From assembly GCA_964016885.1 (NCBI GenBank), contig CAXHJY010001490.1, positions 7,647 to 71,646 of the forward strand: 64,000 nt of DNA, in the 5' to 3' direction. This stretch comes from Eledone cirrhosa. Taxonomy: Eukaryota. Below the pieces are notes generated by a model. The model was not told the DNA's origin, did no database searches, and worked only from the letters and a program-made list of their open reading frames with translations. The translations under genes were made by a program, and so were the position numbers. Below, piece by piece: positions 50,484 through 50,580 of this stretch (its first letter is position 1; every line of letters starts with the position of its first letter).

Positions 50484-50580
50484 TATCCTCGACTACGTAG
50501 TTTCGTGGCATATTATGCAAAAATATTACATCATAGAGATGCAGTATTTTTGTGAGGTTTGCCGACTTATCAAGAGGATA
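50484..50580 (-). ncRNA. Type I hammerhead ribozyme, U3-A8 core variant with extended stem II
   Basis: UAUCCUC UUGAUAA GUCGGCA...UGCCAC GAAA CUACGUAG UC GAGGAUA: 7-bp helix I, palindromic helix III, GUC cleavage triplet. Confidence 0.8.

What the first reader, a model, noticed from the sequence alone, without database searches (positions are those of the whole stretch)
50484..50580. Well-formed variant hammerhead ribozyme (U3-A8) with long structured stem II, on the host-gene strand
Seen (minus strand): helix I UAUCCUC/GAGGAUA (7 bp) and core UUGAUAA, in which the C3-G8 tertiary pair is doubly substituted to U3-A8. Helix II is GU(C)GGCA/UGCCAC, extended by an internal loop, CAAAAAUA/UAUUUUUG and UGCAUC/GAUGUA. 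Then GAAA, a self-complementary ACUACGUAGU helix III and a GUC triplet, with the cut predicted between 50491 and 50490. Established: palindromic helix III permits dimeric cleavage in Penelope-associated hammerheads. Inference: a search requiring CUGANGA or a short stem II would miss it. It may mark an undescribed ribozyme-bearing retroelement family and could cut the RhoGAP pre-mRNA if transcription starts further upstream.
Basis: partly seen in the sequence, partly recalled or inferred. Interest (0 to 1): 0.75.

Follow-up and report, generated by a model that had tools for sequence, protein, structure and literature searches.

The report
Stranded copy of octopus hammerhead retrozyme
This is a real self-cutting-RNA (hammerhead) fold, but it is one truncated copy of a non-coding jumping repeat found thousands of times in this octopus-type genome; the kind is already known, the repeat is likely moved by Penelope-type retrotransposons, and it likely does nothing to the neighbouring gene.

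Summary
The fold is there as described (50580-50484, minus strand; predicted cut 50491|50490), and Rfam misses it. It lies in a 5'-truncated ~189-bp copy (50598 to ~50410), between (TA)n tracts, of a non-coding repeat with 567-597-nt head-to-tail monomers. A relaxed descriptor finds 8,013 U3-A8 matches (control 3); a sister family has C3-G8 (107). Across 34 diverged relatives helices I, II and the long stem II covary, and so do the inner helix III pairs, which can form only in a dimer. New here: a conserved UGAGG/CCUCA complement, a candidate pseudoknot without covariation support. Most copies end at two fixed points, each followed by a bulged stem that also follows the ends of a young Hydra-clade Penelope element, the likely mobiliser. 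U3-A8 cores, dimeric helix III and Penelope-dependent retrozymes are all published. The RhoGAP (ARHGAP6-like) start codon is 44 kb away, so host cleavage is unsupported. The scan found this ~591-nt family before on other DNA. Cleavage and expression are untested. Verdict: new member of a known kind.

The parts
50410..50598 (-). 5'-truncated copy of a ~590-nt non-coding retrozyme monomer: ribozyme plus ~80-nt tail
   Evidence: Homology to the other copies starts at 50598 and runs to +81 after the cut. Median identity 96.8% to 68 full-length hits in subfamily loci.
50484..50580 (-). Type I hammerhead, U3-A8 core, 62-nt stem II, palindromic helix III; predicted cut 50491|50490
50574..50580 (-). 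Helix I 5' strand (pairs with 50490-50484)
   Evidence: 4 of 5 counted pairs change on both sides across 34 relatives
50567..50573 (-). Catalytic core U3-U4-G5-A6-U7-A8-A9
   Evidence: 8,013 U3-A8 and 107 C3-G8 descriptor matches
50505..50566 (-). Stem II: 6-bp proximal helix with bulged C50564, internal loop, 8-bp and 6-bp distal helices
   Evidence: 10 of 13 distal pairs change on both sides
50580..50585 (-). UGAGGU: 5' strand of a candidate pseudoknot; can alternatively pair with helix I 5' strand as a small hairpin (-3.6 kcal/mol)
   Evidence: conserved complementarity, covariation not shown
50553..50558 (-). ACCUCA in the stem II internal loop: 3' strand of the candidate pseudoknot
50492..50501 (-). 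Helix III palindrome ACUACGUAGU (intermolecular duplex -12.9 kcal/mol; 3-bp monomer hairpin +1.5)
50410..50483 (-). Tail from ribozyme to fixed 3' end 1 (+77 to +81); holds a splice-donor-like AG|GTAT at 50469
50386..50415 (.). (TA)n target tract at the 3' junction
50599..50609 (.). Short (TA)n tract at the 5' junction
196..6590 (-). Context only: first coding exons of an ARHGAP6-like RhoGAP gene (start codon 6590; exons at about 6590-6499, 2458-2300, 1184-1104, 321-196); 44 kb from the ribozyme

Best explanation
The locus is a solitary, 5'-truncated insertion of an abundant non-coding ~590-nt repeat that carries one U3-A8 type I hammerhead fold per unit (an animal non-LTR retrozyme), likely pasted into a TA microsatellite by the reverse transcriptase-endonuclease of a Hydra-clade Penelope-like element. 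Shown: copy number, tandem and inverted arrays, no ORF, covarying helices, two fixed 3' ends in (TA)n, and the same RCTC-hairpin-NN-GAGY stem behind both ends in the retrozyme and in an intact Hydra element. Inferred: a tandem array is transcribed; neighbouring hammerheads pair through the palindromic helix III and cut at GUC, possibly helped by a UGAGG/CCUCA pseudoknot that holds stems I and II together; the monomer is ligated to a circle; the Penelope protein nicks (TA)n and starts cDNA a few bases 5' of one of the two stems (+81 or +247 from the cut), copying back through the religated ribozyme. At this locus copying stopped after ~189 nt, so the copy has the ribozyme but lacks the rest of the unit, including its promoter-like part and a partner ribozyme. 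It is most likely a neutral passenger.
For: Copy number: 1,369 candidates, 6,745 and 8,013 descriptor matches with controls 0 and 3, 175 exact 30-mer matches for the window's subfamily. Monomers: 12 distinct cut-to-cut units of 567-597 nt, GC 0.37-0.43, longest ATG ORF 35-78 aa, circular folding z -3.3 and -6.7 for two units against 25 shuffles each. Structure: 86.2% of cells paired against 77.9% shuffled, 115 against 42.6 double-change cells, 0 of 500 shuffles as high, slid controls 33-44%. Dimer: the two inner helix III pairs switch GC17/AU10 and UA17/CG10; 23 of 34 segments are perfect palindromes of five different sequences. Ends: 25 and 28 of 66 distinct 3' ends (window's subfamily) and 12 and 8 of 21 (major subfamily) fall at +77-81 and +239-250, mostly into (TA)n. 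Stem behind end 1 in 38 of 55 read-through copies against 0.4% in shuffles; the same motif follows both ends of a young 713-aa element with RWR, DKT, YRDD, CxCX5C and no CCHH, the Hydra traits in PMC8557442. A second Hydra-type family carries a U3-A8 long-stem-II hammerhead 1.1-1.2 kb behind its ORF end (L111, L129). Precedent.
Against: No cleavage, expression or circle is shown. No autonomous element with this very ribozyme as its terminal repeat was found (0 among 30 GIY-YIG loci and 20 long-ORF loci apart from one adjacent insertion; 0 of 30 Hydra loci; no protein likeness between monomer and Hydra ORF), so the mobiliser rests on shared end features. The pseudoknot has almost no double changes (78.8% paired, one sequence per pair; 5' and loop letters do not track each other). 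In the window's own 149-nt context helix I has a pairing probability of only about 0.2. In the one Penelope system tested in vitro, hammerhead cleavage was not needed for insertion (PMC11167929), so the circle step is not established. The 34 rows are related and were picked by core patterns, which inflates pairing statistics.
Confidence: 0.82

Rival explanations
1. The repeat is the terminal repeat (pLTR) of an autonomous Penelope-like element that I did not find, amplified as ORF-less pieces; tandem units come from template jumps on linear RNA and need no circle.
For: Inverted 5' segments, tails and hammerheads are ordinary PLE traits; a Hydra family with a U3-A8 long-stem hammerhead exists in this genome; cleavage was dispensable in vitro for Poseidon.
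Against: Arrays of five exact 591-bp steps with no ORF (C1:50595887-50598322); every unit examined is non-coding; no ORF-linked copy found, though that search was small.
Confidence: 0.12
2. This copy has been co-opted to cut a long ARHGAP6-like pre-mRNA (or is cut in trans after pairing with family RNA) and so regulates the gene.
For: Same strand as the gene; all core positions intact; intronic hammerheads are known in vertebrates (PMC3088659).
Against: Start codon is 44 kb away and the homologues in two named species begin at the same methionine; the copy is 96.8% like its young family and one of thousands; it has no partner in cis and monomer helix III is unstable.
Confidence: 0.04
3. The hammerhead fold is kept as a protein-binding or dimerisation element and no longer cleaves appreciably.
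For: Metazoan PLE hammerheads cleave poorly in vitro; the Poseidon one needed protein.
Against: Positions 3 and 8 swap together between sister families (99 U-A, 1 U-G in the first 100 matches of a pattern that allowed all four), which is the catalytic tertiary pair; U3-A8 is reported active.
Confidence: 0.1

Closest known systems
Animal non-LTR retrozymes (Cervera and de la Pena 2020, PMC7229834; Li, Clavereau and Pollet 2026, bioRxiv 10.64898/2026.07.22.740005)
   Same: Non-coding tandem units with one type I hammerhead each, GC below 50%, thousands of copies, self-paired monomer, co-existing with Penelope-like elements; reported in a mollusc (mussel).
   Different: Monomer ~590 nt (170-400 nt in the 2020 paper; 51-972 bp in the preprint); U3-A8 core; 52-66-nt stem II with an internal loop; two fixed ends in (TA)n. 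No octopus family in the parts I read. Circular RNA and cleavage are not shown here.
Penelope-associated hammerheads of Schistosoma and other metazoans (Cervera and de la Pena 2014, PMC4209133)
   Same: U3-A8 core variant (about 1,300 hits in S. mansoni), longer helix II with a bulged base near its 5' end, palindromic helix III for dimers, opposite-strand pairs 100-700 bp apart, mostly solitary truncated copies.
   Different: Helix III is a 8-12-nt palindrome, not minimal; helix I is 5-7 bp; stem II is several times longer; the unit is ORF-less.
Hydra-clade Penelope-like elements (Craig et al. 2021, PMC8557442)
   Same: (TA)n targeting, hammerhead near the 3' end, presence in Octopus; here also two fixed ends followed by the same bulged stem.
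   Different: The retrozyme encodes nothing and shares no detectable sequence with the young Hydra family beyond that stem motif.
Pseudoknot-stabilised hammerheads (Perreault et al. 2011, PMC3088659)
   Same: A 5-6-bp Watson-Crick contact between stem I and stem II regions; predicted in about 40% of hammerheads, in all three types.
   Different: Here it would join the 5' flank of helix I to an internal loop of stem II, and it is conserved but does not covary.

Membership tests
Type I hammerhead ribozyme | Core C3/U3-U4-G5-A6-N7-G8/A8-A9 ... G12-A13-A14 with a 3-8 pair and an NUH cleavage triplet | tested here: met
   UUGAUAA, GAAA, GUC; sister family with C3-G8
Type I hammerhead ribozyme | Three helices around the core, helix I open, supported by covariation | tested here: met
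Type I hammerhead ribozyme | [quoted passage not shown] | tested here: inconclusive
   UGAGG/CCUCA duplex of 5 bp or more in 21 of 34 against 1-9 in ten control windows and a shuffle mean of 5.3 (max 14 of 500); no real covariation
Type I hammerhead ribozyme | Site-specific self-cleavage | not testable with these tools
   Needs an in vitro assay
Animal non-LTR retrozyme | Head-to-tail units of a few hundred bases, one type I hammerhead per unit | tested here: met
   567-597-nt units; arrays. The window copy itself is a sub-monomer fragment.
Animal non-LTR retrozyme | No protein-coding capacity, GC below 50% | tested here: met
   Longest ATG ORF 35-78 aa, GC 0.37-0.43 in 12 of 12 units
Animal non-LTR retrozyme | Dispersed, high copy number | tested here: met
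Animal non-LTR retrozyme | Self-paired monomer | tested here: met
   Circular MFE z -3.3 and -6.7, two units, 25 shuffles each
Animal non-LTR retrozyme | Expressed as linear and circular monomer RNA | not testable with these tools
   Needs raw RNA reads or northern blots
Autonomous Penelope-like element (Hydra clade) | ORF with RT and C-terminal GIY-YIG endonuclease | tested here: not met
   No ORF in the unit; no tblastn match to the Hydra ORF
Penelope-type insertion signature | Fixed 3' ends downstream of the hammerhead (tail), inverted 5' segments, AT-rich targets | tested here: met
Host-domesticated intronic hammerhead (RECK/C10orf118 type) | Single conserved locus inside a host transcript | tested here: not met
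   Young multicopy repeat, 44 kb upstream of the start codon; untranslated upstream exons could not be checked

The most novel reading that the evidence does not exclude
A superfamily of octopus retrozymes carries a hammerhead architecture of its own: an obligate-dimer ribozyme with a 60-nt stem II whose internal loop captures an upstream UGAGG, which both forms the tertiary contact and frees helix I from a competing hairpin. The RNA also mimics the twin bulged stems of Hydra-clade Penelope elements to recruit their enzyme at two start points on a circle. With intact young Hydra ORFs in the same genome, the long-proposed circle-templated retrotransposition of retrozymes could be rebuilt in vitro from defined parts, and solitary copies like this one might be cut in trans by family RNA.
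Probability: 0.25. Interest if true: 0.65.

Novelty: new member of a known kind. Interest (0 to 1): 0.3.

Why it matters
The locus itself is ordinary debris of a mobile repeat. The family matters modestly. It gives a natural series of diverged hammerheads with a sister C3-G8/U3-A8 swap, clear selection for dimer pairing and an unusual long stem II. It also links a retrozyme to a candidate mobiliser through a shared end signal, which bears on the open question of how animal retrozymes move. And it shows that thousands of hammerheads in this genome are invisible to Rfam-type searches.

Tried and rejected
Rfam scan: no hammerhead family hit. RNA evidence: no RNA holder listed; the runs laid were contigs of unknown kind and say nothing on expression. 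An empty-site allele was looked for by laying four runs on 50100-51000: no joint across the insertion, and (TA)n breaks contigs, so no conclusion; the 5' junction is covered in one sample by a contig with only 30 letters inside the element. Autonomous partner: 30 GIY-YIG loci and 20 long-ORF loci held no such ribozyme except one adjacent insertion (L076/L099); ORFs near 50 diverged hammerhead loci were, where Pfam named them, RT, PHD or exo/endonuclease pieces, none with GIY-YIG. RhoGAP by Pfam: no hit on this contig; found by exon reading and homology. Pattern for a C3-G8 version with the window's helix I found 2 matches only; the sister family appeared with a looser pattern. RNAalifold on the plain alignment recovered helix I and parts of stem II but paired the core wrongly, so a named structure was counted instead. 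Pseudoknot covariation: not found. The hairpin UGAGG/helix I is not conserved in families with a TTCCC helix I (by eye), so it does not explain UGAGG conservation alone. A ~61-nt intron in the tail was considered: donor-like RGGTA in 85 of 109 copies, but the acceptor AG is AA in the most abundant subfamily; left open. Lunse et al. (RNA Biol 14:1499) could not be read, and its variants may overlap this architecture. Supplements of the bioRxiv preprint and supplementary figures of PMC4209133, PMC7229834 and PMC3088659 were not seen and may list similar motifs.

Full report
OBSERVATION. The 126-nt region folds at -29.3 kcal/mol, z = -3.32, better than 200 of 200 shuffles. Rfam gives no hammerhead among 117 matches at E<=5 in 45000-56000. 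My own descriptor finds this site as the best hammerhead of the window, beside two weaker plus-strand motifs.

IT IS A REPEAT. The genome is 3.0 Gb. The neighbouring gene's closest named homologues are from Octopus sinensis (94%) and Argonauta (86%), so it is an octopod genome. A DNA search gave 1,369 candidates; the 41 full-length matches listed are 96-100% identical. An exact descriptor gave 6,745 matches against 0 for the reversed control, a looser one 8,013 against 3. The window's own subfamily has 175 exact matches to a 30-mer. Copies occur as head-to-tail units and as back-to-back inverted pairs. Twelve distinct cut-to-cut monomers measure 567-597 nt, GC 0.37-0.43, longest ATG ORF 35-78 aa. 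Two monomers folded as circles have z of -3.3 and -6.7 against 25 shuffles each. The window holds only 50598 to about 50410: ribozyme plus tail, flanked by (TA)n on both sides, median 96.8% identical to 68 full-length hits.

STRUCTURE ACROSS RELATIVES. A pattern that excluded the main family uncovered many diverged U3-A8 hammerheads with a 52-66-nt stem II. I aligned 34: 23 of the 25 cluster representatives (one satellite false positive and one 5'-truncated copy dropped; two replaced by the window copy and by a second copy of the same locus) and 11 added by eye. The core, the G10.1-C11.1 pair, the first helix III pairs and the CCTCA loop were part of the selection and are not evidence. With the named structure, 86.2% of cells pair (shuffled 77.9%), 115 cells change on both sides (shuffled 42.6), 0 of 500 shuffles reach either value, and slid controls give 33-44%. 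The rows are related, so these are not probabilities. Helix I has double changes in 4 of 5 pairs and distal stem II in 10 of 13. The inner helix III pairs, which cannot form within one strand, switch between GC and AU (17/10) and UA and CG (17/10); 23 of 34 helix III segments are perfect palindromes of five different sequences. The window's palindrome gives -12.9 kcal/mol as a duplex and +1.5 as a 3-bp hairpin. A sister family has C3-G8 (107 matches, control 3), and the first 100 matches of a pattern allowing all four combinations were 99 U-A and 1 U-G, so positions 3 and 8 move together.

UGAGGU just 5' of helix I (50585-50580) is complementary to ACCUCA in the stem II internal loop (50558-50553). 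The upstream strand was not selected for, yet a duplex of 5 bp or more is present in 21 of 34 rows, against 1-9 in ten control windows and a shuffle mean of 5.3. Double changes are confined to single sequences and the variable end positions do not track each other. It is a candidate pseudoknot, of a type known to speed hammerheads (PMC3088659, passages), not a demonstrated one.

ENDS AND MOBILISER. Distinct 3' ends cluster at +77-81 and +239-250 from the cut: 25 and 28 of 66 in the window's subfamily (4 of the other 13 are junction artefacts) and 12 and 8 of 21 in the major one, mostly running into (TA)n. The window copy uses the first end. By eye, many inverted insertions pair one end of each kind, but some do not (L003, L013, L174). 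Earlier scan notes suggested a bulged stem behind such ends in Hydra-clade elements, which I tested. An RCTC-hairpin-NN-GAGY stem follows end 1 in 38 of 55 read-through copies (0.4% in shuffles); it follows end 2 in 7 of the 55, most others having stopped at end 2 before reaching it. A young element with intact 713-aa ORFs and Hydra traits (RWR, DKT, YRDD, CxCX5C, no CCHH) has two fixed ends in (TA)n, each followed by the same kind of stem. A second Hydra-type family carries a U3-A8 long-stem hammerhead behind its ORF. No autonomous element with this very ribozyme was found, and the monomer has no protein likeness to the Hydra ORF, so the Hydra link is inferred from end features.

HOST GENE. 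The gene is ARHGAP6-like and on the minus strand; mapping two homologues places the start codon at 6590 with further exons towards and beyond the window's left edge. The ribozyme is 44 kb upstream. An untranslated upstream exon cannot be excluded, but a solitary young copy of a dimer-type ribozyme is a poor candidate for regulation.

MECHANISM. Shown: copy number, arrays, no ORF, covarying helices, two ends, (TA)n targets, shared stem. Inferred: transcription of an array, dimer cleavage at GUC, ligation to a circle, and Penelope-type target-primed reverse transcription starting next to one of the two stems; internal initiation that leaves a tail is shown for Poseidon (PMC11167929, parts 1-2 of 4). 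Against the circle step, that paper found hammerhead cleavage dispensable for insertion in vitro.

COMPARISON WITH PRINT. PMC4209133 (parts 1-2 of 4) reports U3-A8 in about 1,300 Schistosoma motifs, longer helix II with a bulge, palindromic helix III and opposite-strand pairs. PMC3088659 (passages) reports natural U3-A8 and cites its activity. PMC7229834 (parts 2-3 of 6 and passages) defines animal non-LTR retrozymes, including in mussel, with no mention of octopus or cephalopods in the main text. The 2026 preprint (parts 1-2 of 5) derives them from Penelope elements. PMC8557442 (passages, section 11, supplement passages) lists an Octopus Hydra element with a C3-G8 short-stem hammerhead. PMC6765202 was seen as passages. 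Searches for hammerhead+octopus, retrozyme+cephalopod and ribozyme+octopus+retrotransposon+self-cleav returned no description of this family; the Lunse paper and several supplements were not visible. The scan has noted the ~591-595-nt U3-A8 family at least four times on other DNA.

VERDICT. Real ribozyme fold, known kind of element, known core variant, unsupported host role. New member of a known kind; interest 0.3.

Noticed in passing
L186-L225 (e.g. L216:4792-6930 +): A very young, abundant Hydra-clade Penelope family with intact 713-aa ORFs (150 scored hits at 96-100% identity). Its hammerhead-like motif reads CAGAAGA, i.e. U4 replaced by A, in nearly all copies shown. Pfam finds nothing in the ORF.
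   Followed up: partly
window 43250-43460 (+): A ~210-bp inverted repeat holding a minimal C3-G8 hammerhead-like motif at 43367, also seen in L060 and L212; probably the inverted end of another Penelope-type family.
   Followed up: no
window 50469-50410 (-) and relatives: Splice-donor-like AG|GTAT about 21 nt after the cut in 85 of 109 copies, followed by a CTAAT, a pyrimidine run and AG|CTC in several families but AA|CTC in the commonest; a possible ~61-nt intron.
   Followed up: partly
L044, L029, L019 monomers, +350 to +450: TATA-like ATAAATA, one or two CCCCTCCGCC GC-boxes and a CACGTG lie 100-150 nt upstream of the ribozyme, a likely internal promoter that the window copy lacks. Motif names recalled.
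   Followed up: no
L226-L240: C3-G8 sister family with the same CCUCR loop and upstream UGRGG, and an 11-12-nt near-palindromic helix III.
   Followed up: partly
L111, L125, L129, L130: Hydra-type element whose hammerhead has U3-A8, a long stem II and a 6-bp helix III that could work as a monomer.
   Followed up: partly
window 44400-46750 (-), 53300-54130, 15800-18200 (-): Decayed LINE pieces (endonuclease, RT and PHD-type matches) and repeated SINE-like copies at 48880-49080 and 49630-49950.
   Followed up: no
G000:C1:279297863-279363543: An array of TTGAAAAGCATAGA... motifs spaced about 2 kb apart, explaining the strand skew; not examined.
   Followed up: no
window 50254-50375: A separate high-depth repeat directly beyond the TA tract, not part of this element.
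   Followed up: no
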